Source: Malacoraja senta (taxonomy: Eukaryota). From it: a DNA stretch of 64,000 nt. The DNA lies in assembly GCA_038087875.1 (NCBI GenBank), contig CM075990.1, positions 15,006,001-15,070,000 on the forward strand, read 5' to 3'. The notes beneath the pieces were generated by a model, which was given only the letters and a program-made list of their open reading frames with translations, was not told the origin of the DNA and searched no databases. Of the stretch, positions 4,956 through 61,419 are shown one piece after another. A program made the translations under genes and the position numbers. Within the stretch, counting starts at the first letter, position 1, and each line of letters opens with the position of its first letter.

Positions 4956-7550
4956 ATTTTTTAACTTGGTTGACACAGTAGTGTTTTCAACTTGGTTGAC
5001 ACATAATCCCTGTACAACTTATTGGCTGCTTTGCGTGAATGGATGTGAGTGCATTATAGGAATGCATCTTTTAATTTGTGTAATTGGAGCTATGATGAAA
5101 ATCCCTTATACATTTGCAGTGTTGGGTTGCCATAAGGAATATCAAATATGCACTGATCCTGTTTAATTAAAAAAATATATGATTAGAAAAATATATTTGA
5201 TCCTCAAGCTTAAAATTCAATTGAGGTAATATACTAGAGCACCAGAAATTGTTAATCATTTTATTAAATTATCATCAATAAGTGTTATTATAATGTTAAA
5301 AAAATAAAATCTCTTTTGTTTTTGTTATAGTTGTACAACACCTAAACACACCCTTCGGCCCATCATGTACAAGGCAACCATCAAGTACCAATCAATGCTA
5401 GTCCTTTTTACTGCCACTTGGTCCATAGTCTACTGTGCTTTGTCAATACAAGTGCTTGAGCAAAAAACAAACTGCTGGAGAAACTCAGTGGGTCAGGCAG
5501 CATCTGTGGAAGGAAATGGATAGGTAACATTTTGGGTTGGGATCTTTGTTCAAGCAAGTGGTTTTCCAGAAACTGTTTAAATGTTATGAGATTATCCATC
5601 CTGGCCACAGGTAATGTAGTCCAATTCTAATCCCTATTCGAATCGGGGGGAAAACTCGGGAGTTGATGAAAAGTCTGTCCTTGCATCCCCTCTCAACCTA
5701 CTGACCCTTTACATTAAACCTACGCCCACTTGTTTTAGACCTTTGCTTTGGTTAAGCCATCAAATGTAACTTTTTATTCAGTACACATTAAAAATGCAGG
5801 AATTAATTATCTGTTGTCTGATGCGCTGTTGCAGTAAGAGATTTAGTTTTGTTTAAAACATCTATATACTTGCTTGCAATGGTGTTATTAAATTTCTGTG
5901 ATCTGATTTAAAACTTTGCCCAGTTGAGATGCTAAAATTCTTCATTGAAGTGGGGCTAAATATCCTTTATTTCCAAATGGGTTGTAATTTTTCTTTTAAT
6001 TATTTAGTCGTAATCAGTGCCAAATGAGTAAACTCACAGTGATCCCAGAATGGTGCGGGAAAATGAAAATGGATAAGACATTCTACTGGATCAGTAGGTG
6101 GTGCTCTTCTGAGGCTGACTTCTTAAACTCAGCTGAAACAATGAGGTGGAAGAAACTGCTTTACGAGTACTGTGCTATAGGGAATTTTACCATTTTATTC
6201 CACACTGTGCCCTCACCTCAAGCGTTCAAGTTCATGAAAACGTATGATATTAACCGCTCTGAGCAGCTCGTCCATTAATTCCCTTCATTGTGAAGTGGAA
6301 TTGCAAATAAAAATGTGTGTGAATAGCCCAGAGGGTTTATGAGTATCTAATTATGAAACCAATGACTGGATATATACATATAAAACTTTTCAAGAATACA
6401 TAGAAAACTTAATGTATGTTAACTTTGCTACAAGCATCACTTAGCATGAAATTGTGGTTTTCCAGGCTGTTTAACACTACAGTAGTCATTAAAATTAATT
6501 CAGTGCTTACTTTATGCAAAGATGGCTGTAAACTCACTAATTTCAGAAAAGCTGGATAGTTTGCTGTAGATAATTCAATAGTGTAAAATTACTTGAGATA
6601 GCTGGTGTAAAGAGGTACAATATGAAGGGGGAAAGTTGATAAGTTTTGTTAAGAGGCGGGCGATATGTCCTTGGACTGACACTCCACGCTGACATTTGTT
6701 TCCCTTTAAATAATAAGCTGTACATCTAAGAGAGTGATGGTGGGTTGTTTGTGACATTGCCTCTCAACCAAGGTTACTGGCTCCAGGACACCGAGTCTCT
6801 CTCTCCGACTGTCAATAACCATCTACTTGTCTGAGTAATGGCTACTTTCTGCAAGGAATTACTGACTCTCAATTCACACCAGAGTGTTTTTATTTCTATC
6901 ACCATCTATCCCCACCCATTTAAACATGTTATGATAAATAACATGCTGCCCAGTAGTGCACTTGTTCCCAAAGTAATTCATTATTCGCATTCTTCTTGAA
7001 TTTTATAGGAAATTTAGATTGTATTCAATGCATTATGTGCTGAACAAATGCGATCAATATTTACGTTTTATTCTGAAATTTTTATTCTGAAGTTGCTGAG
7101 ATTATTTTTAAAGTAAAGCTTTACATATATTGTGGTAGTGAGGCTGGATCTTCAACAGATTCCTTAATTGATAAAGTTGATAGAGTCATGCAGTATAGTA
7201 TGAACCCTTCAGTCCACTATGTCTGTGCCAAGCACTTATACTAATTTGCACTAGTCCTACACTAACCCCAGTGTGGCACTTTTGGGGTGAGTGGTAGAAT
7301 ATGGGGGGGGGGGGGGGGGGGAAGGGAGGTGGTTGTTGGGAATGTGAGGAGAATAACCACATCCCAAAGACGTGCAGGTTCATGGGTTAGTTGAACTCTG
7401 TAAATTGGCTTCTGTGTATAACAAATAGATGCAAAAGTATGATAACATTGAACAAGTGTGAGTGGACTCTGATACAGTGATGATGTATCTTTCAATTATA
7501 TGGGATTAGTGTAGTCTTCTTCTTATCAAGTCCACACACAAGATTAGAAG

Positions 7551-7733
7551 GTACACGAAAATGCTGGAGAAACTCAGCGGGTGCAGCAGCATCTATGGAG
7601 CGAAGGAAATAGGTAACGTTTCGGCCCGAAACGTTACCTATTTCCTTCGCTCCATAGATGCTGCTGCACCCGCTGAGTTTCTCCAGCATTTTTGTGTACC
7701 TTCGATTTTCCAGCATCTGCAGTTCCTTCTTTA
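7551..7733. mobile_element. Palindromic Penelope-derived mini-element
   Basis: About 75-bp inverted arms centred on TTTCG-GCC-CGAAA. 15-bp TSD ACACAAGATTAGAAG at 7536-7550 and 7734-7748. Confidence 0.85.
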
Positions 7734-7835
7734 ACACAAGATTAGAAGTTGTTCAGCCAGAGATGAACACACTTCTCGGCATTTGCATACAATGGTGTCT
7801 GTCTTGTGCTTCTTGTGCTTCTTGTGCGTGGTGGT

Positions 7836-7887
7836 GGAAAGATTGGTGAAAACAGGGCCGTGACGTGAACGCTCTTTCCTTGACCCC
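7836..7887 (-). ncRNA. HDV-like ribozyme fold, family B (one P3 mismatch)
   Basis: GGGGTC-AA-GGAAAGA-GCG-TTCACGT-CAC-GGCCCT-G-TTTTCA-CCAA-TCTTTCC maps onto P1/P2/P3/L3/P3/P1/P1.1/J4-2/P2. Confidence 0.7.
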
Positions 7888-10624
7888 ATTAGTGTAGTAA
7901 AACACAATAGTTCATAAGTTATAGGAGCAGAATTAGGCCACTTGGCCCATCAAGTCTATTCCGCCATTCAATCATGGCTGATATATCTTTACCTCTCAAC
8001 CCCATTCTCCTGCCTTCTCCTCATAAACCCTTACACCCACACCAATCAAAAGTGCAGGTGAAGAAACACACATGGCTGTAATAACAAGTCTGGGTTATGG
8101 CATTGAGCAGAGAGACAGCTTTCCAGTGAAAGATCGACACAAAATGCTGGGGTAACTCAGTGGGACAGGCAGCATCTCTGGAGAGAAGGAATGGGTGATT
8201 TTTTTGGATCTAGACCCTTCTTCAGACTGATCCAAGTGCTTGCTTGAGGCCATGCTGGAAGAAATGTCTGCTCGTTGAATCTTCAGAAGAGCTTTTCAAC
8301 CATATGATAGATCAAATGAGATCAAAAAGGTTTCTTTTGAGACTCTGTAGCTTGGGAAAGCTTTCTCGTGCACTGAAAAGTCGTCAAAATGTCTATTTAA
8401 GTTTCATGGTTCCTCTTCAATGGAGTGATTGTATCTGACTCCACCACCATCTCTGGCAGTATGTTCTAAATATCAAATGTGTGTATAAAAAAACTTACTA
8501 TTCATTTCTCCTTTAAAACACCTTCCTCTCATCTGAAACCTTTGCCCTGTCATTTTTGATACCCCTACCATGAGAGACAATGTCTGACTATCTACTTTAC
8601 CCACGCCTCTCATAAATTCATACTCTTCTGAGAGAAGCTATTTAACCCTTTCGAATCAAAAATCGAACCCCTTTTAATCCGTCCTAGCAAAACAAAGATA
8701 TTTGCATTAAATCGCTTTGAGTACAGTGAACAAGTCGTAGTCATATAGGATGGAAACAGGCTCTTTGGCCCAACTTGCCCATACCGGCTAAGCTGCGTTT
8801 GTGTTTTTTATGACTGTTGGCAGATCAATTTCCCTCCTGGGATAAATAGAGTTCTATCGTATCATATTGTTTAATGTCGTATATCACTCTAAACATTTCC
8901 TATCCATGTACCTATTCTAAAGCCTTTTCAATATTGTTATTTGTACCTGCCTCAACTACCTCCTCTGGCAGCTCATTTCATCTCCCCAGCACACTCTGTG
9001 TGAAAATGTTGCCGACAGATTCCTATTAAATCTTTCCTCTCTCACCTTAAATTATTCTTTTTAACCTTCACCACCATTTTGGAAAATTCATTCCACTTAA
9101 TGTTCAAATTGTTTGCAACGTTAACAAAAATCTAAGTCTGCTCTTGACTTTATTCTAATGTGTAAACTGAGCCGCTATATGAATGGTGGGCTGCAAGGTT
9201 TGTTTGTATTTGTAGTTATGATTCCTTGGTTCAGCAGTGATATACACAAGAATAGTTCAGGTTTTGCTTGCTAAAAACAGGTACTGATCTATGACCTTAA
9301 GTACCCGAGAGCCATAATTTAATAGAAGCAGCAGAAATGTTGTTATGATGCCAAAATCATTATATTTTTCTCTTAGTCTTCTATCAACTGTAATTACCAC
9401 AAAGAGGAGTCCAATTTGCTTGTTTTTTGAAATATATTTTTTGCAGCTGTTGAAAATCTGTTGGAGTGAAATGATTTCTGAGCCTGTTCGGCTCAAGGTC
9501 AGATGATACCATTCAGTTATAACAAGGAGTGAATAAGCTGGGATCTGTCAACCATGACGTAGAAAAGAACAGTAATGTACAGTTCATGAATTAAAACCTG
9601 TCACTTTTTTTCAGACGCCACTGGCCAACTTGTCAAACTTAAAACTTTCAGTCGTGATGTCTGTCACATCACTTTTAACAAATTTGAACCTCGTGCGTTC
9701 CTGTATTTGAACCAGCTGGTAGGAAAATGGCATGACTCTTGGTTAAATATTGCGTGAAAATCAAAAATGAAACAAGGTTTTGTGATGGATCTAATTCTAA
9801 TCTATTGGAAGACCCCAATAATCAATGATAAGATGTTGCTTCATTAGCTACTTTTAGCTCTGAATGATTAAAAATGGAGATGATCTCTTGAGATTTCAGT
9901 AAAATTCAGATTTTGGCCGGAACTTTTAAATGAAATGCAATGTAGAGCAGGTGTAATATAACTTGGTTCACTTTTGACGTGTTTGTACGTCCAGGTGCTA
10001 GAACTATTGAAAGCTTGTTTAAGGGTCAGTTTAATTAACAGCTGCCCTTTTTCTGTGGATGTCATAAAGTGTGCTATTATCATGAAGTGCCCGGGTGCCT
10101 TTGTTAAATTCCAGCAGCTGGTGACAGCTTGGCAAATTATGAGTTTCCTGGTTTAAACCAGTCTAAATTGCAGACAAAACAAACCATCAGCTGTGCAAAT
10201 ACTGCACCTCTGTTTGGCTTCACAAGAAGAAAGAGATTAGAATGAGTACTTAGTGATCATAATTACTGGTAAGAGGCAAATACTAGGTTCAGTCAGACTA
10301 GAGATTGTTTCATTATATCCAATTAACACCCACTAGATTATTCCTAATTACTGCTGTTAGAGGAGTAGAGATGTCATACTCCAAACATGTAAAAAGCACA
10401 TGGGTCATTGATAACCATATGGTAATATCGATTGGTTCTGGTCTTAAATTGCAGCATTTGTCTTAAATTTTCACCGTTCACACTTAGCATTGATTCTGAT
10501 AACACAATTTTGGGATGGAGAGTCACTTGTCTGTGCAACGGAATGTTAAAAGTGGTCAGGTTAAAGTGGAATTTATCTTTAACCATCTCTGATTAAATGG
10601 TTCAATAAGTTATTTTAATTTGGT

Positions 10625-10784
10625 AGACAAAAATGCTGGAGAAACTCAGCGGGCGAGGCAGCATCGTCCCCTATCTGTTTCGTTACCTATTCCTTCGCTC
10701 CATAGATGCTGCCTCACCCGCTGAGTTTCTCCAGCATTTTTGTCTACCTTCGATTTTTCCAGCATCTGCAGTTCTTTCTTAAAC
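10625..10784. mobile_element. Palindromic Penelope-derived mini-element
   Basis: Inverted arms AGACAAAAATGCTGGAGAAACTCAGCGG. 13-bp TSD ATTTTAATTTGGT at 10612-10624 and 10785-10797. Confidence 0.8.
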
Positions 10785-11146
10785 ATTTTAATTTGGTGTA
10801 CATGTTGATTCAAGAATTAGGCAGCAGTTTTCTTTAAAAAAGATTTAACATCTGTATATCAGGGCAGAGGAAAAGTTACCACGACAGGCACATGTATTCA
10901 TCTTCGGTTTTGTTATCTCCAAGCTCTTCACGGTGCATTGTTTCTGTCTTTCTACAGCCAAATCCTGAGTTTTTTCCAGAGATGCTGCCTGACCTGTTGA
11001 GTTACTCCAGCACTTAGTGTCCTCAATGTTTGTTGAATGGACATTTGCAGTTACGAGCAAATCTCCATAGGAATGTTTAAAAAAAAACTCTAATATCAAA
11101 CATTGTATTTTGGGAAATTTCTGTGATTAGCAATGGAGGTGAGGGG

Positions 11147-11788: not shown

Positions 11789-12940
11789 ATAGATACATAG
11801 ATACATAGAAAATAGGTGCAGGAGTAGGCCATTCGGCCCTTCGAGCCTGCACCGCCATTCAATACGATCTTGGCTGATCATCCAACTCAGTATCCCGTAC
11901 CTGCCTTCTCTCCATACCCCCTGATCCCTTTAGCCACAAGGGCCACATCTAACTCCCTCTTAAATATAGCCAATGAACTGGCCTCAACTACCCTCTGTGG
12001 CAGAGAGTTCCAGAGATTCACCACTCTCTGTGTGAAAAAAGGTTTTTCCTCATCTCGGTCTTAAAGGATTTCCCCCTTATCCTTAAGCTGTGACCCCTTG
12101 TCCTGGACTTCCCCAACATCGGGAACAATCTTCCTGCATCTAGCCTGTCCAACCCCATAAGAATTTTGTACGTTTCTATAAGATCCCCTCTCAATCTCCT
12201 AAATTCTAGCGAGTATAAGCCAAGTCTATCCAGCCTTTCTTCATATGAAACTCCTGACATCCCAGGAATCAGTCTGGTGAACCTTCTCTGCACTCCTTCT
12301 ATGGCTATAATGTCCTTCCTCAGATTTGGAGACCAAAACTGTACGCAATACTCCAGGTGTGGTCTCACCAAGACCCTGTACAACTGCAGTAGAACCTCCC
12401 TGCTCCTATACTCAAATCCTCTTGCTATGAAAGCCAACATACCATTCGCTTTCTTCACTGCCTGCTGCACCTGCATGCCTACTTTCAATGACTGGTGTAC
12501 CATGACACCCAGGTCTCGCTGCATCTCCCCATTTCCTAATCGGCCACCATTTAGATAATAGTCTGCCTTCCCGTTTTTGCCACCAAAGTGGATAACCTCA
12601 CATTTATCCACATTATACTGCATCTGCCAAACATTTGCCCACTCACCCAGCCTATCCGTCACCTTGCAGTCTCCTAGCATCCTCCTCACAGCTAACACTG
12701 CCCCCCAGCTTAGTGTCATCCGCAAACTTGGAGATGTTGCTTTCAATTCCCTCATCCAGTTCATTAATATAAATTGTAAATAGCTGGGGTCCCCGCACTG
12801 AGCCTTGCGGTACCCCACTTGTCACTGCCTGCCATTGTGAAAAGGACCCGTTTACTCCTACTCTTTGCTTCCTGTTTGCCAGCCAGTTCTCTATGCACAT
12901 CAATACTGAACCCCCAATACCGTGTGATTTAAGTTTGTAT
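11789..12940 (-). mobile_element. CR1-clade LINE (HER1-like), 5'-truncated RT C-terminus plus 3' UTR, frameshifted
   Basis: Encodes [33 protein letters not shown] and RGDLIETYK in frameshifted ORFs (12652-12966 and 12018-12818). Has an 8-bp (ATAGATAC)n tail. Confidence 0.95.
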
Positions 12941-14923: not shown

Positions 14924-14937
14924 TTGAAATGTAAGGT

Positions 14938-16200
14938 TTAAGAAGGAACTACAGATGCTGGAAGAATCGAAGTTAGGCAAAAATGCTGGAGAAACTCAGC
15001 GGGTGAGGCAGCATCTATGGAGCTAAGGAATAGGTGACATTTCGGGTCGAGACCCTTCTTCAGACTGATGTGGGGGGGGGGGGCGGGAAGAAGAAAGGAA
15101 GAGGCGGAGACAGTGGGCTGTGGGAGAGCTGGGAAGGGGAGGGGAAGGAAGGAGAAAGTAAGGACTACCTGAAATTGGAGGTCAATGTTCATACCGCTGG
15201 GGTGTAAACTACCTAAGCAAAATATGAGGTGCTGCTCCTCCAATTTGCAGTGGGACTCACTCTGGCCATGGATTCTTTAGGGAATGGGGGTTCCCCTCTT
15301 CGACTATAGATGAGGCTCTCACCAGGGTCTCTTCTATATCCCGTAGCTCAGCTCTCACTCCCCATCCCCCCCACTCGTGACATGGACAGAGTCTCCCTTG
15401 TCCTCACCTTCCACCCTACCGCCGTCACATACAACACATAATCCTCTGACATTTTCGCCACCTCCAACGGGATCCCACCACTGGCCACATCTTCCCATCT
15501 CCTCCCCTTTCGGCTTTCCGCAGAAACCGCTCCCTCTGTAACTCCATGGTCAATTCGTCCCTTTCCCACCCAAACCACCCCCTCCCCTGGTACTTTCCCT
15601 TGCAACCGCAGGAAATGCTACACTTGTCGCTTTACCTCCCCCCTTGACTCCATCCAAGGACCCAAGCAGTCTTTCCAGGTGCGGCAGAGGTTCACCTGCA
15701 CTTCCTCCAACCTCATCTATTGTATCCACTGCTCTATGTATCAGCTGCTCTACATCGGCGAGACCAAGCGCAGGCTTGGCGATCGCTTCGCCCAACACCT
15801 CCGTTCAGTTCTCATTAACCAACCTGATCTCCCGGTGGCTCAGCATGTCAACTCCCCCTCCCATTCTGAATCTGACCTTTCTGTCCTGGGCCTCCACCAT
15901 GGCCAGAGTGAGTCCCACCGCAAATTGGAGGAGCAGCACCTCATATTTCGCTTGGGCAGTTTACACCCCAGTGGTATGAACATGGACTTCTCCAATTTCA
16001 GGTAGTCCTTTCTTTCTCCTTCCTTCCCCTCCCCTTCCAAGCTCTCCCACAGCCCACTGTCTCCGCCTCTTCCTTTTTCTTCCCGCACCCCCCAGCCCCA
16101 CATCAGTCTGAAGAAGCGTCTCAACCCGAAACGTTGCCTATTCCTTAGCCCCACAGATGCTGCCTCACCCGCTGAGTTTCTCCAGCATTTTTGTCTAACT
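14938..16200 (+). mobile_element. Penelope-like element (Neptune type), 5' truncated, with an inverted 5' terminal repeat
   Basis: From 15273 it encodes, with frameshifts, FPCNRRKCYTC (Cys linker) and NLIYCIHC...LYIGETKRRLGDRFAQH (GIY-YIG), stop at 16005. The span 14938-15272 is the inverted copy of about 15895-16200. Confidence 0.92.
15679..16005 (+). pseudogene. GIY-YIG endonuclease domain of the Penelope element
   Basis: LIY...YIGET..R...RF..H and the C-terminal E...I..LGSL.PSGMN motifs. Confidence 0.9.
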
Positions 16201-18401: not shown

Positions 18402-18850
18402 CTTAGATGTACAGTGTGGAACAGGCCCTTCAGGCGACCAACTCCATGCCGACCAAAGATCATCCATACACTGGTTCTATCTTACACACTGGGGACAATT
18501 TACACCTTCTTCCGTGTGCATCTTCCATTTTCCAAATGTTGACATCGCTGTCATCGCCCGTCCCGAAAAGGACGCAAGCTTCCGGCGACAATCAGTGGGA
18601 GCCATCACTTGTTGCAATAGATGACGGAGGTAGCAGAATTAGCTCAGGATACTTCCAGTTTCCAGCCTCGTGACGTGGACGCTTCTTACAGAAGCCAATT
18701 GACCTACAAACCTTCACGTCTTTGTAATTTGGGTGGAAACCGAAGCACCCGGAGAAAACCCACACAGTCTCAGGGAGAATGTACAAACTCCATCCAGACA
18801 GCACCCTTGGTCAGGGTCGAGCCAGCTTCTCTGACGCTGTCAGGCAGCTG
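18402..18850 (-). mobile_element. HE1-like V-SINE interrupted by a family C insertion
   Basis: GGGGACAATTTACA|GAAGCCAATT is split by the insert at 18506-18686. Confidence 0.8.
18506..18686 (-). mobile_element. Short retroposon family C, 5' truncated inside the ribozyme P2 strand
   Basis: Homologous to 29017-29198. TTACA is duplicated at the ends. Confidence 0.85.
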
Positions 18851-26517: not shown

Positions 26518-26717
26518 NNNNNNNNNNNNNNNNNNNNNNNNNNNNNNNNNNNNNNNNNNNNNNNNNNNNNNNNNNNNNNNNNNNNNNNNNNNNNNNNNNN
26601 NNNNNNNNNNNNNNNNNNNNNNNNNNNNNNNNNNNNNNNNNNNNNNNNNNNNNNNNNNNNNNNNNNNNNNNNNNNNNNNNNNNNNNNNNNNNNNNNNNNN
26701 NNNNNNNNNNNNNNNNN
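26518..26717. other. Assembly gap, 200 N
   Basis: Run of N. Confidence 1.
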
Positions 26718-28487: not shown

Positions 28488-28930
28488 CTCTGGGCAGTGG
28501 GCAGGTGCTATAGACCTGCACGGGAAGGTAGACGCTCCCGCACCCACGAGTATCGGGCAGATGGGGCTCGTCAGCCCTGGGAAAGGCAGTCCATCTAGGA
28601 GAGGGAAAAACTCTGATTTAAAACCTCCACTGCCTTGTGACCATATCCAGTCATGGAAAAGGCTCCAGGAGTAAAACCTCAAGAAAATCCGGAGTCGGAG
28701 CCCCTAAGGCAGTTCGTCGTTGTCTACAACCTCGCTCTGGCAGCTCGTGCGACGGCACTGGTGCCAAACAGTAACGGCCCTGCTGTTCCTTTGGATCGAT
28801 CAGTGACGTGGAGAGGGGGGACGTGCTGCATGGGCAACAGCCTGTCCTCCGTATGGACATCGCCCAGGCTTGCATCTGACCAGGATGCATCACCCATGGT
28901 CAGTCATGACCAAGGGGGGGCCTAGTACTA
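28488..28930 (+). mobile_element. Non-autonomous RTE-derived retroposon
   Basis: 10-bp TSD CATCAGTGAT (28478-28487 and 28931-28940). RTE 5'-UTR-like CAGCCCTGGGAAAGGCAGTCCATCTAGGAGAGGGAAAAACTC and a TAC-repeat tail. Confidence 0.7.
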
Positions 28931-29016
28931 CATCAGTGATTTAGTTCTCCTTTGCAAAGTTCTGAAATCATCAGATTTGCTGTGTTTTTTTTCAAGCATG
29001 GTATACATTTCCCTTT

Positions 29017-29207
29017 CTTCTTCTTCGTGGTCCATCTTGTTACAAATGTTGGCCTCGCTGTCATCGTCCGTCCTGAAATGGACGCAAGCTTCCGGCGACA
29101 ATCATTGGAAGCCATCACTTGTCGAAAATTGATGATGGTGGTAGCAGAATTAGCTCGGGATACTTCCAGTTTCCAGCCCCGCAACGTGGACGCTTCTGCT
29201 TGGGGCC
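29017..29207 (-). mobile_element. Short retroposon family C, full length (CPEB3-like ribozyme head, GAA tail)
   Basis: 12-bp TSD ACATTTC(C/T)CTTT at 29005-29016 and 29208-29219, (GAA)n tail, second copy at 18506. Confidence 0.9.
29143..29207 (-). ncRNA. HDV-like (CPEB3-like) self-cleaving ribozyme
   Basis: GGCCCC-A-AGCAGAA-GCG-TCCACGT-TGC-GGGGCT-GG-[P4]-CTAA-TTCTGCT. P1, P2, P3 and the 2-bp P1.1 all pair. Candidate catalytic C at 29153. Confidence 0.85.
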
Positions 29208-30296
29208 ACATTTCTCTTTAATTTACTGTCTCCTGATAGCCACAACTGATCCCTTCTTCTTGTTGAGCTTTTGTGCCATAAAGGGACCTTTATTATTTGT
29301 AACTATAGATTCATTCTTTAAATGTTGGTTGTTGGTTTTAACGATGTTGGCCGCTTCACCAGTGCGCTCTCAGATTACCCTGGTTTTTAGATTCTACTAA
29401 ATCAAATTAAGGTATGAAATTCTATCATTTTATGATCACTGTTCACTAAAGGTTCCTTAACTGCCAGATCATCAATTAACATTTTCTCCATCAATAAACT
29501 AAAATGGCCTAAAAGGGCACAAAGTGCTGGAATAACTCAGCAGGTCAGGCAGCACTCTGGAGAATATGGAAAGGTGATATTTTCAGGTTGAGAGTCCCTA
29601 CTTCAGATGGATTGTGGGGGGTGGGGGGTGGGGGGGGGGGGGGGAGAAAGCTGGAAAGGGAGGTAGCAGGACAAAGTATGACAGGTAAATGATAGAGAGG
29701 CAAGGTTTTTTTTGATAGGCAGATGGTGGGAACAAAGGTGTAGGAAGGAACTACAGATGCTAGTTTAAACCGTAGACACAAACATCTAAAGAAGGGTTTC
29801 GGCCCGAAACGTTACCTATTTCCTTCGCTCCATAGATGCTGCTGCACCCGCTGAGTTTCTCCAGCATTTTTGTGTACCTTCTAAAGTAACTCAACTGGTC
29901 AGACAGAATGTCAAGTTCCAGGAGTACATAATGCCCAGCTGTGCTCACTATGCAAACCATTATACCCATTTATTTTGATTTGTGCCATTTATTCACTTAT
30001 CTCATTAAAATTGTTGTATGCATTCAGTTTTACCCTGTTAACTATTTTGCTCCGATTTTCAGTTGAGGTCTACACCTACACTGTGCATTCCACAGTGACT
30101 TCTCATGCCCAAAGGTGTTTTTACCTTCAGTATCCAAACACATTGCCAAAAAGTCTGAAGAAGGGTCTTGACCTGAAACGTCACCCATTCCTTCTATCCG
30201 GAGATGCTGCCTGTCCCCCGCTGAGTTACGTCATCAGTTTGTGTCTATCCTCGCCTTGAAATTCCCAATCACTTTTTAATTCCTTCACCTTTTTGG

Positions 30297-34750: not shown

Positions 34751-35811
34751 CAAGTCAAGAATCAAGTTTCCTTTATTGTCATTCAGACCTTTCGGTCTGA
34801 ACGAAATGGTGATGCCTGCAGTCATACACAGAACCAATAATAACAAAACATACAATAAACACAAATTAAACATCCACCACAGTGAGTTCACCAAGCACAT
34901 CCTCACTGTGATGGAGGCAAAGTCTTAGTCTCCGTCTCTTCCCTCCTTGTTCTCCCTCTGCGCTGAAGCGATCGATCCAGGCCGAAGATGCCGCCCTCCA
35001 GTCCAGCGGACCTCCATGGAGATGTCGCCGCCGCCGAAAGCCGGAACGCCGTCTCCGCTCCGAGACGGCCCGCCACAGCATCAGCCCCAGGTCCCGCAGT
35101 CTCCGCTCCGGACCCCACTGCCCCAGCTCCAGACCCCGCAGTCCCCGCTCCGGACCCCGCTGCCCCAGCTCCAGGTCCCGCAGTCCCCGCTCCGGACCCC
35201 GCTGCCCCAGCTCCAGACCCCGTAGTCTCCGCTCCGGACCCCGCTGCCCCAGCTCCAGGTCCCGTAGTCTCCGCTCCGGACCCCGCTGCCCCAGCTCCAG
35301 ACCCCGTAGTCTCCGCTCCGGACCCCGCTGCCCCAGCTCCAGGTCCCGCAGTCCCCGCTCCGGACCCCGCTGCCCCAGCTCCAGGTCCCGCAGTCTCCGC
35401 TCCTGACCCCGCTGCATCAGCTCCAGGTCCCGCAGTCTCCGCTCCGGACCCCGCTGCATCAGCTCCAGGCTGCCGCCGAAAGCCAGAACGCCGCACCAGC
35501 AAGTCGGGCCACCGCTGCCTCAGCCCCGAAGACGGCCAGCCTCCCGTTGGTAAGTCCTGGCTGGCTCTGCCTCCGTAGCCTTGGAGTCGGTCGCAGGATG
35601 GAGTCGGCCAGCCCCGCCATAAGGCCTCACCGCAGACGGAGGCAAGGAAGGGGGGTACGACACGAAAAAGTCGCATTCCCCGAAGGAGGAGACAGAGAAC
35701 ATGTTTCTCCCCCCCTAACACAACCCAACAAACTAAAACTTAACAAAACAAGACAAAAAAAATAACAGAAAAAAGTAAAAACAGACGGACTGCAGGCGAG
35801 CCGCAGCCGAT
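34751..35811 (-). mobile_element. Nested non-autonomous non-LTR element with a GC-rich minisatellite
   Basis: CAAG-repeat tail plus TTTATTGTCAT like the Rex1-type copies. AATAT is duplicated at the flanks, and the host transposon resumes after it. Confidence 0.65.
35082..35469. repeat. 42-bp minisatellite, about 9 units (two diverged 21-bp halves)
   Basis: Unit AGCTCCAGGTCCCGCAGTCTCCGCTCCGGACCCCGCTGCCCC. ORFs across it show a 14-aa period. Confidence 0.95.
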
Positions 35812-36664: not shown

Positions 36665-37049
36665 TATAGAAACGTACAAAATTCTTATGGGGTTGGACAG
36701 GCTAGATGCAGGAAGATTGTTCCCGATGTTGGGGAAGTCCAGGACAAGGGGTCACAGCTTAAGGATAAGGGGGAAATCCTTTAAGACCGAGATGAGGAAA
36801 AACTTTTTCACACAGAGAGTGGTGAATCTCTGGAACTCTCTGCCACAGAGGGTAGTTGAGGCCAGTTCATTGGCTATATTTAAGAGGGAGTTAGATGTGG
36901 CCCTTGTGGCTAAAGGGATCAGGGGGTATGGAGAGAAGGCAGGTACGGGATACTGAGTTGGATGATCAGCCATGATCATATTGAATGGCGGTGCAGGCTC
37001 GAAGGGCCGAATGGCCTACTCCTGCACCTATTTTCTATGTATCTATGTA
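36665..37049 (+). mobile_element. CR1-clade LINE 3' fragment, same young family as 11789-12940
   Basis: Encodes IETYKILMGLDRLDAGRLFP...FFTQRVVNLWNSLP. Nearly identical to the reverse complement of about 11795-12180. Confidence 0.95.
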
Positions 37050-45393: not shown

Positions 45394-45447
45394 GGGGTGG
45401 GAGATTGCAACCTTCACGTGGTCCGCCCTGTTTCGACGAATGCAATC
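45394..45447 (+). ncRNA. Minimal HDV-like ribozyme (54 nt)
   Basis: GGGGTGG-GA-GATTGCA-ACC-TTCACGT-GGT-CCGCCCT-G-TTTCGA-CGAA-TGCAATC. 7-bp P1 with G1.U wobble, 7-bp P2, 3-bp P3. Candidate catalytic C at 45437. Confidence 0.85.
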
Positions 45448-45524
45448 AACCTGGCGTGCACAATCAAATAGAACAAGTTGTCTTACAACTTTAGGCTGTG
45501 CACGCCATACGCAAGAAGAAGAAG
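45394..45524 (+). mobile_element. Short retroposon family A (minimal HDV-like head, 3' stem-loop, GAA tail)
   Basis: ATCCAAA duplicated at 45382-45388 and 45525-45531. GGCGTGCACA/TGTGCACGCC stem. Second copy at 61282. Confidence 0.9.

Positions 45525-47833: not shown

Positions 47834-47866
<33 letters not shown>
47482..47866 (+). mobile_element. Rex1/Babar LINE 3' fragment inserted in a Penelope mini-element
   Basis: Encodes KIISDPSHPGDKLFESLPSGRRLR...KNSFYP. (ACTT)n tail and AGATG duplication. Confidence 0.9.
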
Positions 47867-48559
47867 GATGCTGCCTGACCCACTGAGTTCCTCCCAGCAC
47901 CTTGTGTTCTGCTCACTCTGAAATAGTGATTGTGTCAACAAGAAGTTTGAAATGAATGACTGTAAAAACTAAGAATTTGTAACACATTTGGCACTCTGGA
48001 TTTAACATTCCTGTGTGAATAATAAAAATGTCCTATTTTACAGAGAATTCAAAACATATTAGCTCTCTCGAGGAGGAAAGATCCTTCCCCTTGACCAATG
48101 CCCAGTGTGGAACTGACATCTCAGCTGTGTGTGTGGAAAAGATATCATGGAAATATCAGTCCAGATACAACCTCTTAGCTATTCTCAATATGGGACCTCT
48201 GGGTCAGTTGACTGCCTCGTATGCCATGGTTGTATGATCTGACCCATGCAAGTGAAAGCAAGACCCAAATTGAAAGCAAGCGTGAAAGACCGTACCCTCT
48301 ACAGCTTATCAGGGGTCATTCCAAGTTAATTTCTTGCTCTCTGAGCAGAGAGATTGAGTTGTTGGCATGACAAGACAGCACGTGAGAAACATAGAAAGCA
48401 AAAAAGGCGATATGAGTTTGAATGATTGTTTTCACCGGATTTTTACAGTATTCTGCATACATCTATTGGGAGAATCCTATCTGAGCCATAAAAATGGTGC
48501 ATATTAAAATATGAAACAAAACATCGCATTGTTGGTGGAAAAAAGGCACAGGTTAGATA

Positions 48560-48872
48560 TACGTACTTACTGCCTATTATGCTTCCTGGCATGTAGGGCA
48601 GCAACAAGGGTCCTCCACTCCTATTCCCAGTAGTGTTGATTCCTTCAGTTGCTGTTTCCGTAACATATGTGTTTTACGAGACAGGGTTGTTAGCCCTGTG
48701 CTCAACCCCCAACCTGGAGGACCAGTGGATCGCTCTTCGTCTCGCCTCTACCCTTCGACCTGTCCAGCATGGGAGACCCTAACAGGAGACAAATCTCCTG
48801 CTGGCATAGCTCTAGAGGTCACTGAGACACACAAGCTCCCCGACCACGACAAGGTTGCAATCCAACGGGGAG
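48560..48872 (-). mobile_element. Non-autonomous RTE-derived element (family D) with an HDV-like 5' end
   Basis: 10-bp TSD AGGTTAGATA (48550-48559 and 48873-48882). RTE-type 5' UTR motifs CCTTGTCGTGGT and GGGCTAACAACCC. TAAG-type tail. Confidence 0.8.
48727..48872 (-). ncRNA. HDV-like ribozyme with a long P4
   Basis: CTCCCCG-TT-GGATTGC-A-ACC-TTGTCGT-GGT-CGGGGAG-C-[~95 nt]-CGAAGA-GCGATCC. Confidence 0.6.
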
Positions 48873-49514
48873 AGGTTAGATAGAGGAGGCATATTATTCA
48901 GAACAGGGATGGACATTAAGACAGAAACTAATAGTGGTTGCAGAGGCAAGCAAAGGGAGATCAGTTGTGCAGAGAGATGACATAAGTATTGGATGGATGT
49001 TCTTGCAATGCGTAATGATACCAGGTGATGGAGCAGAGATTGAATGGATTGTGTTTGGAAAGATTCTGGCCTTTTCATGATCAGGAAGTAATGACCTTGG
49101 TGTTCACACCTTGGCCTGGCAATCGAGACTGAGGACTAGATTTGGTCAGTGGACCAAGTAAACATTATTTTAACTTGTCCAAGGTGTGATGTTTGAACAT
49201 TTGTGGTTTTAGGTTCTAGTTTTTGGAATGTTGCTGAATAGCTAAATGTCTGGGAATGAGTTATATGACTGTGGATGACAGGAATGGATTAAACTGTGGA
49301 CACATCAAGGTGACTTTTGGAAGAAGCAGCCATGACAGCAGATGTGAATAATTTATTTGGATATTACTGTAAGGGATGTATTCAGTGAAGCGTGTAGCTG
49401 TATAACACTGGATATCAGTAGACAAAGCAACGGAAGATGATGGAATGATTGACTGTGGCAAATGCCTTTGTAATTTTAGGAAGATGTTGAGTTATGGTGT
49501 ACATTAGTTGCCAC

Positions 49515-55736: not shown

Positions 55737-57106
55737 TTACTCTCTTACTCGCTTGGAGACTCAACTATTGGCAAATCTTAGAAGCTTGTTTTGTACAGGC
55801 GTCAGAGGTTATGGAAAGTAGGCAGGATAATGGGGTTCGGAGGGAGAGGTAGATCAGCCATGATTGAATGGGGGAGTAGACTTGATGGGCCGAATGGTCT
55901 AATTCGACTCCTATCGCTTATGACCTTATGACCACAGATACGAACATTGAAATATTAGTGCAGACCAGAATTGAGGGAGTGCTGTACAGAATAAATATTG
56001 ATTTTTCTAACTTCAAGTAACCCTTGCATCCCCCCTCTCTCCATGCCTTCCCCACCCTCGTCGTACTAGCTTCAGTCATCTTATTGAGTCTCATTATCTG
56101 TAACTCATTTTCACCTGACAAACAGCTGACAATGGCCTGTTTCCTCTATCATCATTACTGTTTTGCATATCTTTCATTCGTTTATTCTATATCATCGTCT
56201 ATCTCGTTTCTCTTTCCCCGACCCTCCGTTTGAAGAAGGGGCTCAACCCGAAACGTCACCTATTCCTTTTCTCCAGAGATGCTCTCTGACCCGCTGTGTT
56301 CCTCCAGCTTTTTGTGACAGGTCAGGAAGCATCTGTGGAGGGAACAGACAGGCAATGTTTTGGGTTGGTAGTCTTCTTCAGACCATTCTTTACATTGATA
56401 CATATTGTTGATAGTAGAGAGTTTATTAATCATTTTTGGAACATCAAGAGTCGATATCTGCTTGTTTTTTAATTTTGATTCTTGCCTTTTGCATCCATAT
56501 ATTCTGCTACAGTTTTTTTTTCACACTGCAAAATGTCTTTATTGTCACCTTTCATCTTTCAAAGTGTTCTCCGAGATCTCATAGCAACCACCTTTTATCC
56601 ACTTTGAATATCTTTTTTCCAACAAATCATTTTTTTCCAAGGCTTAATAGTACATAATCTTAAGTGTGGTACAATTTATAACATAATGCACAACTTGGGT
56701 ATTTATTATGCAGTGTGCTATTTGCAACTTCAGCTATTCTCAACATAATAATGTAAATTATGTTTCAAAGAAAACTCCCCTAAAGAGGTTCTCTTCTGTT
56801 TTAATTTTGCACTTTGATAGATGCATCTGAAACCAATAGCTGCTGAGTTATTAACACTGTAATTATGATAAAAATATGCTTTATGTTTTTTTTATTATGT
56901 TTCTAAGTGTACGCAGTGGGATACTGAATAGAACAGTTTACCATTTTTGCTCATAACAGCATTTCCGATTTGGATGCTGTCAGTTGCAAACTACAAACTT
57001 GTTGGAATCAGAAATCTCTTGTGGGAGGCTTATATCAACTTCCTCCCCCTCCCCCCACCCCCCCCCCCCTCCCCACTAATGCCCTGCCTAGTTCTCTTTT
57101 GAGTTC

Positions 57107-57286
57107 AGACAAAAGTGCTGGAGAAACTCAGCGGGTGAAGCAGCATCTATGGAGCGAAGGAAATGGCAACGTTTTGGCCCGAAACGTTGGCTATTTCCTT
57201 CGCTCCATAGATGCTGCTGCACCCACTGAGTTTCTCCAGCCCTTTTGTTTACCTTAGATTTTCCAGCATCTGCAGTTCCTCCTTAA
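57107..57286. mobile_element. Palindromic Penelope-derived mini-element
   Basis: Inverted arms around TTTTGGCCCGAAA. TTTTGAGTTCA is duplicated at both flanks. Confidence 0.8.
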
Positions 57287-57632
57287 TCTCTTTTGAGTTC
57301 AATCCACAAGTATCCCTCACTGCTCTCTGTACAGCACAGAAACAGGCCTTTTGGTCCACCATATCCATGCTAACCACTCCACTGATCTGTACGAGACCTA
57401 TTTCTAGGAATTTTGGCTTTTAATTACTTACAGTTTTAACACATCTGCCAAGATTTTAATCATTTAATGAAGGGAGTTTTGCCTTTTGAAGAGCCTTGTG
57501 GTTGTGTTAAATTATTGGGGTTGCGTTTGTACTTTGTTTTAATTTCCATCCTTTTGTTTTCAGGACCCAAAACAAACTTTAGAGATGATAGCTACCTAAA
57601 ATATCAATGTTCAGTTATTGATATTTCTAATA

Positions 57633-57951
57633 GTCAAGTCAAGTCAAGTCAAGTCAAGTGAGTTTATTGTCATGTGTCCCTGGTAGGACAATGAAATTCT
57701 TGCTTTGCTTGAGCACAACAGAACATAGTAGGCATTTACTACAAGGCATTCTATAAATATATACACAATGGTCAATATACTGATAAAGTGCAAATAACAG
57801 TATTGGCTAGTAAAGTTCAGTGTTATGTCCGAGCCAGGTTTAATAGCCTGATGGCTGTGGGGAAGTAGCTGTTCCTGAACCTGGTCGTTGCAGTCTTCAG
57901 GCTCCTGTACCTTCTACCTGAAGGTAGTAGGGAGATGAGTGTGTGGCCAGA
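57633..57951 (-). mobile_element. Rex1/Babar-type LINE 3' fragment
   Basis: (AGTCA)n tail. Near copy of 3478-3790. Confidence 0.8.
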
Positions 57952-59096
57952 TAATAATATCTCGTAACAATCAGATTAAAAGATTAGTTGTATTATTTTT
58001 CTCTTACTTTTGTTTTGGAAATTGGATACAGAAGGGAAATCTGAAGATGTTGCCCAAAGCATCTGCAGTCATACTATACAGTGGAGCCACAGGACCTTCG
58101 GCCCAACTAGTTCATGTACACCAAGATGCCCATCCATCCCAGTCCCATTTATCCATGTTTGACAAATATTCCTGCAAATCTTTCCTCTTCTTGTGAATGT
58201 TTCCTGTCCAGTTCCGTGACTAGGCTAACACAATAGATGCCAGTTAATGCTGAAATATGGCAAGAGATTGCCAGGAGGACTGAGAGCATGCATCAAGAAT
58301 GATCTCAAAGCCATATAGGGAAAAATTAACATCCCGTGAACTCACGGGAATCATGTAACTGGCTAAAGTGGAGAAGAAACTTTCAAGAAAACTCTGAACA
58401 TTAGACAATAAAAGCGTGAGTAACTCAGCGGGTCAGTCTCCTGAGATGCTGTCTGACCCGTTGAGTTACTTCAAGATGCTGTCTGACCCACTGAGTTACT
58501 CCATCTATTCCTTTTCTCCAGAGATGCTGCCTATCTATGTATTTCTATGTATCTGTCCCGCTGAGTTACCCAGGTTTTTGTGTCTATCTTCGGTTTAAAC
58601 CAGCATCTGCAGTTCCTTCCTACAAAACTCCAAATACTCTCAGTCCCATTGGGAGCACCCAGAGGCCATGCAAATATAATAGGAGTCCAAAACATTCCAT
58701 CTCCTAGCCCATCAACCACCAATTGCCACATCTATAGCAGAATCTATGGGTCCCACATTGTATTCTTCAGTCACCTCAGAAGCAACAGTTCTGGAGTGGA
58801 CAAGTCATCCCAAGGCAAAGATAAAGATTCATCCCCTACTTTATTATGCCTGCGTTCAGTTGAAATTACAAGAAAATTGTTGTAGGAAAATATAATTGAA
58901 ATAGACAGTTTGCATGGGTGAAGTGAACATACTGAAATAAGAAAGACTATACTTTTGTTCACGGATGATTATATCCAAGTCATTATTGTGGCTGAATTGG
59001 AAAATCACTTACTTCCATGATCAATTTTGGTTTATGTTCAACCCATTAATTTGATCATCAGAGACCACCTAAGGTTTTGAGAAATGGAATGCCCTT

Positions 59097-59378
59097 TTAG
59101 TTTTAGTGATACAGCGTGGAAACAGACCCTTCTGCCCACCGAGTCCTCTCTGACCAGCGATCACCCGTACACTAGTTCTATCCTACACACTGGGGACAAT
59201 TTTACAGAAGCCAATTAACCTACGAACCTGCACGTCTTTGGAATGTGGGAACTGACCGGAGCACCCAGAGAAAACCCATGTGGTCTTTGGGAGAATGTAC
59301 AAACTCTATACAAATAGCGCCCAGTCAGAATTGAACCCAAGTATCTGGAGTTGCAAGGCAGCTACGCCACTGTAGCTG
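59097..59378 (-). mobile_element. HE1-like V-SINE
   Basis: Tail, core and B-box. Confidence 0.8.
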
Positions 59379-59662
59379 CTTGTATGTGAGAGCCTAACCC
59401 TTTTGGTTCTGATGGTGGTTCCCAATATTTTCATTATGTTTGCTACCTTTTGCTTCTCTTAAAATTAACTTTTGAATTTGCTGGTCTTTGCCTCCAACCC
59501 TTACGAGACTGGAATATTTTATCGTATTAATGGAAACAAAGGGAAATAGTCATTAGCAGAAGGGAACTGAGAAATACTCATAATACTGAATGGAAGTTGT
59601 CTTGTGGCAAGTCATCAGTAGAATGGCCCAAATAAAAGTTGACTTCTCTTTACTATAAAGTT

Positions 59663-59889
59663 GGGGTCAAGGAAAGAGCGTTCACATCGCGACCCTGCTT
59701 CCATGAATCTTTCCACCACCACGCGCAAGACAGACACCATTGTATGCAGATGCCGAGACACATGTTCAGCTCTGGCTGAACAACTTCTAATCTTGTGTGT
59801 GGACTCGACAAGAAGAAGACTACACTAATCCCATATAATTGAAAGATACATCATCACTGTATCCTAGTCCACGCACACTCATTCAATGT
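59663..59889 (+). mobile_element. Short retroposon family B plus 71 bp of transduced 3' flank
   Basis: 9-bp TSD TATAAAGTT (59654-59662 and 59890-59898). Element 59663-59818 ends in GAAGAAG. The span 59819-59889 matches the reverse complement of about 7445-7515. Confidence 0.85.
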
Positions 59890-60187
59890 TATAAAGTTTA
59901 CAGGTTCCTTAAATAATGTTCTAATCTCTCTATATGCAGAAATGTCAGAAAATGATAAACAAATGTTGTACTTCTAGATTATTGTTGCCATTATGTTCTT
60001 ATTATGTGGTTAATGTTTCAGTGAGGACGTAGAGTTACTTTATCCCTTCCGAGCAGAAACAAGGTCACCCTGTTAAAGAAATTTCCCTTTCAATATTTTA
60101 TTTCTCTCCAGGTGCAGACTGCATTTTCAGCAGTCACCTCCTTATATAGGAAGCCCAGAGTGGACACCAATGCAGTGTTCATTATGA

Positions 60188-60500
60188 TTTAGTTTAGTTT
60201 AGAGATACTGTGTGGAATCAGGCCTTTGGCCCACCGAGTCTGCACCGACTAGCGATCCCCACACACTAACACTATCCTACACACACACGAGGGACAATGT
60301 ACAAATTTATTGAAGCTATTTAGCCTACAAAGCTGTTCGTCTTTAGAGTGTGGGAGGAAACCGGAGTTCCTGGAGAAAACCCACGCAGGTCACGGGGAAA
60401 ACGTACAAACTCCATACAGACATTACCCATAGTCAGGATCGAAACCGGGTCTCTGGTGCTGTAAGGCAGCAACTCTACCGCTGCACCACCGTGCCGCCCG
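60188..60500 (-). mobile_element. HE1-like V-SINE, full length
   Basis: (TTTAG)n tail through to the head GGGCGGCACGGTGGTGCAGCGG. Confidence 0.9.
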
Positions 60501-61281
60501 CAAATGAAGAAGTACTAAAATATCTTGGAGCCCAAATGTTCAAAAGGATCGATATTGACTGGATCTTATAAATATTAATTGGAGCAGAGAATCTAAATTC
60601 AGAACAAACTAATTGAAATATGGAACTAATAAAAAGAAACAGGATAGATATCTGAGTGACATTTTATTTGAGGAATGATCAATACATGAAGTAGAATTGT
60701 GAAAACAAAGACCTTGGCAATATTATTTGGCATCTGTTATTCTGATTATTTTTAAAAACACTATGATATATCAAATATTCTTCATATCTGAAACTATCCT
60801 GTGATTCTGTGTGGAAATAGACACAAAATGCTGGAGAAACTCAGCGGAACAGGCAGCATCTCCGGACAAGAGGAATGGGTGATGTTTCGGGTCGAGACCC
60901 TTCTTCAGACTGAGCGTCAGGAGAGAGGGAGATGCATAGATATAAGGTAGTGTAAGTGATCAAAAGAGATGAAGATCAAGGAAAATGTAGAATAGATCAT
61001 TATTAGCCATGAGCGGGTGACCTTATGTGTTACCAATTTTATGAACTGGAAATGTTTCGTACTTGCAGATTTGGTATCTTTGTGACTGCCAGACAGATCA
61101 TTGCACAAAACCAAATCATGAGGAGCTTGTAAATTCTGGGCAAGTCAGGCAGTGTCTGTGGAGAGAGGATAACTAAAGTATTGAGCTAATGTTTACCTTG
61201 GGACAGTCCTTTATTCTGTAGAAGGATTCGGTTTAAAAATGGATCTAAAAAATGTAGCAATGTATTTAACAGCGATATAAT

Positions 61282-61419
61282 CTTCTTCTTGCGTATGGCG
61301 TGCACAGCCTAAAGTTGTAGGACAACTTGTTCTATTTGATCTTATTTGATTGTGCACGCCGGGTTGATTGCATTCGTTGAAACAGGGTGGACCACGTGAA
61401 GGTTGCAATCTCCCATCCC
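61282..61419 (-). mobile_element. Short retroposon family A, second copy
   Basis: 11-bp TSD AGCGATATAAT (61271-61281 and 61420-61430). The minus strand begins GGGATGG-GA-GATTGCA-ACC-TTCACGT-GGT-CCACCCT. Confidence 0.9.

What the first reader, a model, noticed from the sequence alone, without database searches (positions are those of the whole stretch)
7516..61419. System: several promoterless ribozyme-SINE families coexist, with P1.1 covariation
Seen: four families (A 45394/61282, B 7516/59663, C 18506/29017, D 48560) have different bodies but the same layout: HDV fold at base 1, a short hairpin-containing body, a simple-repeat tail (GAA in A-C) and a TSD. None has recognisable A/B boxes or a meaningful ORF. 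P1 and P2 sequences differ yet pair. L3 and the base after P1 covary: TTC/G in A and B, TCC/GG in C, TTG/C in D. At 7887, 29207, 48872, 59663 and 61419 the fold starts at the TSD edge. Knowledge: R2 SIDEs in Drosophila and the short trypanosome L1Tc/ingi derivatives use a 5' HDV-like ribozyme in this way. Inference: these elements are excised from host read-through transcripts by self-cleavage and copied in trans by RTE-type LINEs. Seven copies in 64 kb imply high genomic abundance and many potential intronic cleavage sites.
Basis: partly seen in the sequence, partly recalled or inferred. Interest (0 to 1): 0.88.

Follow-up and report, generated by a model that had tools for sequence, protein, structure and literature searches.

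The report
Self-cleaving heads on mini-retroposons
Four families of short jumping elements in a vertebrate genome are cut-down copies of longer retrotransposons that start exactly at a predicted self-cleaving RNA; one relative's RNA closely matches the mammalian CPEB3 brain ribozyme, hinting at where that ribozyme came from.

Summary
Families A–D are dispersed repeats (motif counts 8,845, 2,600, 697 and 610) whose 5' ends sit at nucleotide +1 of an HDV-like double pseudoknot, next to target-site duplications. They are internally deleted LINEs (SIDE/NARTc type), not tRNA SINEs. Only D comes from an RTE LINE. A comes from a Vingi-type LINE (both ends found on LINE copies in this genome), B shares its 3' end with a second Vingi-type LINE, and C has no parent found. 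Helix pairing holds across six heads, but the P1.1 switch is one event. A and B lack a P4 helix; B and C have a 6-bp P1; D has a ~96-nt P4. Copy 59663 carries a 69-nt 3' transduction from the 7516 locus and no 5' host sequence, as read-through plus cleavage predicts. The head of a third Vingi-type LINE family scores 52.6 bits on Rfam's CPEB3 model (cut-off 35). Cleavage is not shown, an internal promoter is not excluded, only about half of sampled copies look intact, and no host gene was found. Verdict: new variant of a known kind.

The parts
45394..45524 (+). Family A copy 1: ribozyme head 45394-45447 (7-bp P1, no P4 helix), body, GAA tail; weak 7-nt TSD, 5 nt from +1
61282..61419 (-). Family A copy 2: head 61366-61419 (one P1 mismatch); nt 2-77 match the 5' end and the last 39 nt the 3' end of a Vingi-type LINE; TSD 61270-61281 and 61419-61430
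7516..7887 (-). Family B copy 1, probable source locus of copy 2: head 7836-7887 (6-bp P1, no P4 helix, one P3 pair broken); TSD 7505-7515 and 7888-7898
7551..7748 (.). 198-nt nested insertion of an unrelated hairpin repeat in B copy 1, with its own 14-nt duplication
7445..7515 (-). 3' flank of B copy 1; donor of the transduced segment
59663..59820 (+). Family B copy 2: head 59663-59714 (catalytic C lost); last ~73 nt match the 3' end of a second Vingi-type LINE
59821..59889 (+). 3' transduction from the B copy 1 flank (93% identical; two matches in the genome); element plus transduction bounded by a 9-nt TSD at 59654-59662 and 59890-59898
29017..29207 (-). Family C copy 2: head 29143-29207 (6-bp P1, 2-bp P1.1, short P4; Rfam CPEB3 33.4 bits); TSD 29005-29016 and 29208-29219, one mismatch
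18506..18686 (-). Family C copy 1: lacks the first ~11 nt and the P1 5' strand; no TSD found
48560..48872 (-). Family D: 5' ~245 nt and 3' ~63 nt of a 3.3-3.4 kb RTE LINE; predicted ribozyme 48725-48872 with a ~96-nt P4 domain, proposed catalytic C at 48739; TAAG tail; TSD 48550-48559 and 48873-48882

Best explanation
A-D are bipartite non-autonomous LINEs (SIDEs): the first tens to hundreds of bases of a single-ORF LINE joined to its last 40-75 bases. A and B derive from Vingi-type LINEs, D from an RTE LINE, and C probably from a Vingi-type LINE that was not found. Steps: (1) a copy is transcribed inside a longer host RNA that runs in from upstream and can run past the tail (shown once for the 3' side by a transduction; the upstream origin is inferred). 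(2) The head folds into an HDV-like nested double pseudoknot and cuts just before +1, removing host sequence (fold and boundary shown by sequence; cleavage inferred from homology). (3) The parent LINE's endonuclease-reverse transcriptase binds the shared 3' end and copies the RNA by target-primed reverse transcription, giving 9-15-nt TSDs (shared ends and TSDs shown; trans use inferred). (4) New copies then decay neutrally (shown), so only a subset can act as sources.
For: 5' ends at +1 to +4 in samples picked by the 3' motif only: A 28 of 30, B 30 of 30, C 28 of 30; one of the two A exceptions is a truncated parent LINE and the other begins at the same junction. TSDs in A 20 of 27, B 18 of 28, C 21 of 25, D 24 of 30, against 2 of 420 mismatched flank pairs. 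D head 95-98% identical to the start of 3.3-3.4 kb RTE copies, with a series of other deletion lengths. A nt 2-77 found, at a place predicted from protein matches, upstream of the endonuclease of a Vingi-type copy; A's tail continues a Vingi-type ORF; A's head also appears translated ahead of the endonuclease in protein P0030 (14 of 20 residues; 0 of 2000 shuffles). B's 3' end continues another such ORF. Across six heads own-family strands pair best: P1 1 of 720 permutations, P2 2 of 720. Head F lies 100-180 nt before an endonuclease hit at 10 of 17 loci and passes the Rfam CPEB3 cut-off. 3' transduction without 5' host sequence. Cleavage at +1 is reported for L1Tc/NARTc (PMC3185411) and R2 SIDEs (PMC3414825).
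Against: No cleavage assay. In one polyA RNA run of another species no pile-up of molecule ends was found, with low depth at B's 5' end and A's 5' end absent from the stretch laid. B and C have a 6-bp P1, one pair short of the usual HDV helix (7 bp recalled; Rfam CPEB3 consensus). D/E P2 needs a bulge at its top, was chosen after the nearer partner failed (3-4 of 7 pairs), and a rival pairing would bury the proposed catalytic C (my reading). Nested folding of window copies is not better than shuffles (z -0.3 to -1.8; pseudoknots not modelled). Short elements are seldom truncated anyway, and a start site at +1 gives the same boundary. No LINE was found carrying B's own head or either end of C. 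A nt 78-99 are of unknown origin. The six heads are related, so the permutation counts are not probabilities.
Confidence: 0.72

Rival explanations
1. The head is mainly an internal RNA polymerase II promoter that starts at +1, as Pr77 does in L1Tc; cleavage is secondary or lost, and the precise 5' ends are start sites.
For: Pr77 is both promoter and ribozyme (PMC3185411 and PMC4035085, passages). Kojima 2018 expects polymerase II transcription from LINE 5' ends (PMC5786205, section 23). A (Vingi-type) and D (RTE) share 19 of 21 nt in the head, more than structure needs. The transduction case fits a start at +1 equally well.
Against: Six heads keep all HDV helices through different sequences, and the J4/2 C, at the exact 5' end. 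A promoter alone does not need this. The two roles are not exclusive.
Confidence: 0.17
2. The fold is kept as a structural module (5' protection, translation start or protein binding) and the short-P1 or long-P4 heads (B, C, D) cut poorly or not at all.
For: 6-bp P1 in B and C, distorted P2 in D/E. Cap-like and IRES-like roles are described for R2 and L1Tc heads (PMC13708176, PMC6765202, passages). No end pile-up.
Against: The catalytic C is kept in 24 of 29 A, 26 of 29 B and 24 of 27 C copies and in every family reference. A structural role does not explain the loss of 5' host sequence.
Confidence: 0.09
3. The families are ordinary polymerase III SINEs or random 5'-truncated LINE ends, and the fold is chance.
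For: Short length, simple-repeat tails and TSDs are SINE-like.
Against: No B box in 7 of 7 copies while a neighbouring SINE has one; heads match LINE 5' ends; 86 of 90 3'-anchored copies reach the same start; Rfam and descriptor scores above controls.
Confidence: 0.02

Closest known systems
R2 SIDEs and R2/R1 hybrid SIDEs of Drosophila (PMC3414825, abstract and outline seen)
   Same: 5' HDV-like ribozyme joined to a LINE 3' end, no ORF, moved in trans by the LINE that owns the 3' end.
   Different: SIDEs are rare and rDNA-specific, released from polymerase I co-transcripts; these are dispersed, in thousands of copies, with APE-type parents.
NARTc, RIME and SIDER of the L1Tc/ingi clade (PMC3185411, PMC4035085, passages seen)
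   Same: Short derivative sharing the parent's first ~77 nt, which fold as an HDV-like ribozyme with a single-pair P1.1; dispersed insertion; ingi is the sister clade of Vingi.
   Different: Vertebrate host; parents lack RNase H (Vingi type); A and B lack P4; promoter activity unknown here.
Bipartite non-autonomous RTE and Vingi elements (RTESINE, Bov-A, WALLSI3, Vingi-1_EE derivatives; PMC5786205, section 23 and passages seen)
   Same: D is such an RTE derivative; A and B are such Vingi-type derivatives.
   Different: [quoted passage not shown] Here two Vingi-type LINE families start with an HDV-like fold.
Mammalian CPEB3 ribozyme (Rfam RF00622)
   Same: Head F 52.6 bits, a C copy 35.1, a B copy 27.4 (cut-off 35); about 41 of 54 positions outside P4 identical for F by my count, with an unbroken 17-nt run.
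   Different: CPEB3 is a single conserved intronic locus; these are mobile and multicopy. Heads A, D and E do not match the model. Descent is not shown.
Minimal P4-less HDV-like ribozymes (drz-Mtgn, theta; PMC10879173, passages seen)
   Same: A and B have only 7 unpaired nt between P1 and J4/2.
   Different: Those were assigned to phages, and that paper's eukaryote set (human, mouse, protists) gave none; these are in a vertebrate retroposon, with no tRNA.

Membership tests
HDV-like ribozyme | P1, P2, P3 and P1.1 in nested double-pseudoknot order | tested here: met
   All pairs form in A, B, C references and all but one or two P1 pairs in the F copy; D/E met only with a distant P2 partner chosen afterwards
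HDV-like ribozyme | Catalytic C at the start of J4/2 and conserved L3 | tested here: met
   Present in all six heads; lost in window copy 59663
HDV-like ribozyme | 7-bp P1 | tested here: inconclusive
   Met in A, D, E and probably F; 6 bp in B and C
HDV-like ribozyme | Self-cleavage just 5' of P1 | not testable with these tools
   Genomic 5' ends coincide with the site; one search showed no end pile-up at low depth
Rfam CPEB3_ribozyme RF00622 | Score at or above 35 bits | tested here: inconclusive
   Met by F (52.6) and one C copy (35.1); not met by window copies (33.4, 27.6, 20.9), a B copy (27.4), or A, D, E (no hit)
Bipartite non-autonomous LINE (SIDE) | 5' end equals the parent LINE's 5' end | tested here: inconclusive
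   Met for A and D; B and C heads resemble head F (86%; 17 of 18 nt) but no LINE with their own head was found
Bipartite non-autonomous LINE (SIDE) | 3' end equals the parent LINE's 3' end | tested here: inconclusive
   Met for A, B, D; not found for C
Bipartite non-autonomous LINE (SIDE) | No coding capacity; TSD and simple-repeat tail | tested here: met
Vingi clade (parents of A, B; family F) | Single ~1000-aa ORF with APE and RT and no RNase H (definition from PMC13708176) | tested here: met
   Six full-length relatives of 979-1030 aa show APE and RT, no RNase H (four other proteins in that call were fusions or other elements); Nimb control has RNase H; own-genome open frames to 1014 aa. 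Own-genome proteins were not scanned whole.
Vingi clade (parents of A, B; family F) | RT tree groups with named Vingi elements | not testable with these tools
   No named reference available; the relatives form one clade (support 1.0) apart from RTE, CR1, Rex and Nimb rows, all labelled from recall
RTE clade (parent of D) | ~3.3-kb single-ORF APE-RT element with microsatellite tail and T-initiated TSD | tested here: met
   TSD signature from PMC6007223 (abstract); the clade label rests on recalled motifs, no named reference
   A and B share ends with Vingi-type ORFs; A-C TSDs start mostly with A, D's with T; other RTE families found could not be read, so C is not excluded
Polymerase III SINE | tRNA-type A and B boxes in the head | tested here: not met
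   5S and 7SL heads had no Rfam hit

The most novel reading that the evidence does not exclude
Vingi-type LINEs carry active 5' HDV-like ribozymes, including minimal P4-less and 6-bp-P1 forms spread to more than 11,000 sites in one vertebrate genome, and the mammalian CPEB3 ribozyme is the exapted 5' end of such an element or of its short derivative. This would complete the pattern that every clade making ORF-less bipartite elements has a 5' ribozyme.
Probability: 0.4. Interest if true: 0.82.

Novelty: new variant of a known kind. Interest (0 to 1): 0.64.

Why it matters
If the heads cleave, a vertebrate genome holds thousands of self-cleaving sites, and orientation bias in genes becomes testable. 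It would add Vingi to the LINE clades with 5' ribozymes, which fills the gap in Kojima's 2018 list, and Vingi and RTE elements are being built into gene-insertion tools that keep the native 5' UTR (PMC13708176). Minimal P4-less ribozymes would gain a eukaryotic source and role. The close match to CPEB3 names a candidate donor clade for a ribozyme whose origin was not addressed in the passages searched (PMC8233481: no 'transpos' or 'origin' in the main text; PMC7761336 proposes domestication in general terms).

Tried and rejected
A strict descriptor missed B and D. The near P2 partner for D/E pairs poorly and was replaced by the distant one; family E was mis-parsed and corrected. A PF14529 search for parents returned Nimb-like and CR1-like elements; none of the 14 regions read carried A-C ends on a LINE. 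Other RTE families at about 45% identity were listed but their ends were not read. Searches for C's parent gave nothing: 0 matches for a C-terminal motif before C's 3' end, and none of the first 100 of 191 exact C heads lay beside listed endonuclease hits. A search for A's 5' part with a different continuation gave 79 hits, none at long LINE copies; explains this, as A nt 78-99 are not in the LINE. No host gene: 139 of 283 unmasked open frames scanned, none reached a Pfam cut-off. No RNA holder was listed for the C region. The RNA lay showed no begin/end pile-up. A scan of 170 copies found only the one transduction. No sign of selection on single copies. Four look-ups of earlier scan findings returned nothing. 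Ruminski 2011, Webb 2009, Webb and Luptak 2011 and Kojima 2011 were not held; Repbase, Dfam and R-scape were not available. Supplements were not read; Kojima 2018's supplement could hold matching families.
Full report
Setting. The window lies on contig C14 of a 1.94-Gb genome. That it is a cartilaginous fish is my guess from recalled repeat types and was not tested. No host gene was found in the window, so whether any copy is intronic is open.

Observation. All seven copies are present. A strict HDV descriptor found three folds (45394, 61419, 29207) with scores of 25-26; 40 dinucleotide shuffles gave 10 hits, best 23. Rfam's CPEB3 model hit the C copy at 33.4 bits and the B copies at 27.6 and 20.9, all below the cut-off of 35. 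Copy by copy: 45394, 29207 and 48872 keep all helices; 61419 has one P1 mismatch; 7887 has a broken P3 pair; 59663 has lost the catalytic C; 18686 lacks the P1 5' strand. No copy has a B box, while a SINE near 62046 does.

Abundance and ends. Genome-wide counts of a 27-30-nt 3' motif with up to 2 mismatches were A 8,845, B 2,600, C 697, D 610, with 0 for each reversed control. These are lower bounds and include parent LINE ends. For A-C they give about 0.4 copies per 64 kb, so the window is enriched. To avoid picking full-length copies, I took the first 30 exact 3'-motif hits of each family. The 5' end lay at +1 to +4 of the fold in 28 of 30 A, 30 of 30 B (four with nested inserts, one with an internal deletion) and 28 of 30 C; a few rows are duplicates. 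TSDs of 8-17 nt were found in 20 of 27 A, 18 of 28 B, 21 of 25 C and 24 of 30 D copies (D from best hits), searched within 3 nt of +1, against 2 of 420 mismatched flank pairs. A-C TSDs start mostly with A and have T at -1 in 14 of 27, 14 of 28 and 16 of 25 (background 0.32-0.35). D's start with T in 14 of 24 and show no -1 bias. This points to two different enzymes. Families A and B also occur in contigs of three other organisms, with a sharp boundary at B's +1 in one.

Parents. D: 16 of 20 loci with the RTE ORF end carry D's 5' part joined at varying distances, and two 3.3-3.4 kb degenerate APE-RT elements start with D's head at 95-98% identity. A: locus L149 is a truncated LINE whose ORF runs into A's last 39 nt. 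Its relatives are ~1000-aa APE-RT proteins without RNase H, the published mark of Vingi (PMC13708176, passages); a Nimb-like control does show RNase H. One relative, P0030, carries A's head translated before its endonuclease. From protein coordinates I predicted A's head upstream of a long copy on C8, and found nt 2-77 there at 93% identity. B: locus L287 is a truncated LINE of a second Vingi-type family sharing B's last ~73 nt; about 45 such ends match at 71-93%. B's own head was not found on a LINE. C: no parent. The tree separates these RTs from RTE, CR1, Rex and Nimb rows but has no named Vingi reference.

Two more heads. E is a second RTE-like head, 72% like D. F is the 5' end of a Vingi-type family with open frames to 1014 aa; the copy read has six tandem repeats of part of the head. 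The F motif occurs at 17 loci, 10 of them 100-180 nt before a listed endonuclease hit. F has a perfect 7-bp P2 and an 8-bp P4 and scores 52.6 bits on the CPEB3 model, the only Rfam family hit. A's head in the same call gave no hit, so the fold alone does not produce this match.

Structure. With hand-anchored strands from six heads, own-family pairing was reached by 1 of 720 permutations for P1 and 2 of 720 for P2. The heads are related and the D/E partner was chosen afterwards, so this is support, not a probability. P1.1 is C-G in A, B and F, two pairs in C, and G-C in D and E: one switch. A and B have 7 unpaired nt where P4 would be; B and C have a 6-bp P1; D and E have ~96 nt between P1 and J4/2. 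Among 3'-anchored copies, 20 of 29 A, 16 of 29 B and 10 of 27 C keep the catalytic C, the L3 core and all but at most one pair. CpG decay is similar in head and body (14 vs 16%, 10 vs 16%, 13 vs 12.5%), so single copies appear unselected.

A natural experiment. Copy 59663 is followed by 69 nt that occur only once elsewhere in the genome, as the 3' flank of copy 7516-7887 (93%), beginning with that copy's TSD. Element and extra segment are bounded by a new 9-nt TSD (chance rate 0.005). So the 7516 locus was transcribed past its tail and retrotransposed 52 kb away, and the daughter starts at +1 without any upstream host base. This fits read-through plus cleavage, and also an internal start at +1. 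It was the only such case among 170 copies.

RNA. One raw polyA run from another species was laid on locus L019. First mates were biased about 2:1, in opposite directions for the A (+) and B (-) copies, while a neighbouring SINE was near 1:1. Under the usual stranded protocol this is an antisense excess, as loss of sense transcripts would give. Library polarity is unknown and it is one run, so this is weak. No pile-up of molecule ends was seen.

Literature. Read: PMC5786205 (passages, section 23); PMC13708176, PMC4035085, PMC6765202, PMC10879173, PMC3185411, PMC10919898, PMC8256844, PMC4908430, PMC13635239, PMC8233481, PMC4494074, PMC7761336 (passages found by term); PMC6007223 and PMC3414825 (abstract and outline). 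Ten searches showed no paper, in listings or passages read, that places an HDV-like ribozyme in Vingi, describes these families, or derives CPEB3 from Vingi. Three papers hold both 'Vingi' and 'ribozyme' and their passages do not link them. The library lacks Ruminski 2011, Webb 2009, Webb and Luptak 2011 and Kojima 2011. I recall that CPEB3-like ribozymes from sea urchin, lancelet and lamprey were tied to retroelements there, so part of this may be in print, and Repbase may already name the families.

Verdict. The class is known (R2 SIDEs, NARTc/RIME, bipartite RTE and Vingi elements). New, as far as searched: ribozyme heads on Vingi-type LINEs and their short derivatives, minimal and short-P1 forms at high copy in a vertebrate, a transduction that shows a genomic copy acting as source, and a LINE head that passes the CPEB3 cut-off. 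Identity as bipartite LINE derivatives: about 0.93. Self-cleavage as the source of the 5' end: about 0.72. Interest 0.64.

Noticed in passing
window 45448-45515, 59715-59812, 29030-29140 (family references L002, L028, L045): In A, B and C the 30 nt after the ribozyme pair with the last 30 nt before the tail (-21.7, -18.1, -17.2 kcal/mol; 0, 2 and 8 of 1000 shuffles); not in D (231 of 1000). A 5'-3' panhandle could favour internal deletion or protein binding.
   Followed up: partly
window 45403-45423 and 48842-48862: A (Vingi-type) and D (RTE) heads share 19 of 21 nt across P2-P3-L3: possible exchange of ribozyme heads between LINE clades, or a shared sequence signal.
   Followed up: partly
L149:1081-1371; genome hits: The parent LINE of A is often 70-88% identical in protein to a sequence from the eel Synaphobranchus kaupii (P0004), and P0003 ends with the same tail; possible horizontal transfer between fish lineages.
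   Followed up: partly
L298 (G000:C8:937540-937839, minus) and G000:C4:35489738-35489809: Family F copies have tandem 26-nt duplications of the ribozyme's 5' half at their 5' ends (six and at least three units).
   Followed up: no
L166:137-480: Fifth family E, an RTE-like 5' region with an HDV-like head 72% like D.
   Followed up: partly
window 28541-28930 (minus): 5'-truncated RTE-like UTR fragment (label recalled) just beyond C copy 2; one 95% match among held loci.
   Followed up: partly
G000: At least four Vingi-type LINE families are present, two with open frames of 886-1014 aa; the 5' ends of two were not read.
   Followed up: partly
L272: A young Nimb-like family with intact 1277-aa APE-RT-RNase H frames in many copies.
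   Followed up: partly
window, e.g. 7549-7738, 10622-10785, 57103-57291: A very abundant 90-120-nt repeat often forms head-to-head palindromes that give spurious microRNA hits.
   Followed up: no
window 35082-35469: 42-nt GC-rich tandem array, 9.2 copies, open in several frames.
   Followed up: no
window 11794-12180 and 36665-37049; 15442-16002; 62689-63537: Two 97-99% identical inverted CR1-like 3' fragments, a Penelope-like frame and an L2-like frame (labels recalled).
   Followed up: no
L019:877-1533: A contig of another species covers the flank and 3' end of this B copy at about 96% identity, so this insertion predates the species split.
   Followed up: no
P0058: A hagfish protein labelled aggrecan-like ends in a Vingi-type endonuclease fragment, probably a gene-model error.
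   Followed up: no
window 26518-26717: 200-base run of N.
   Followed up: no
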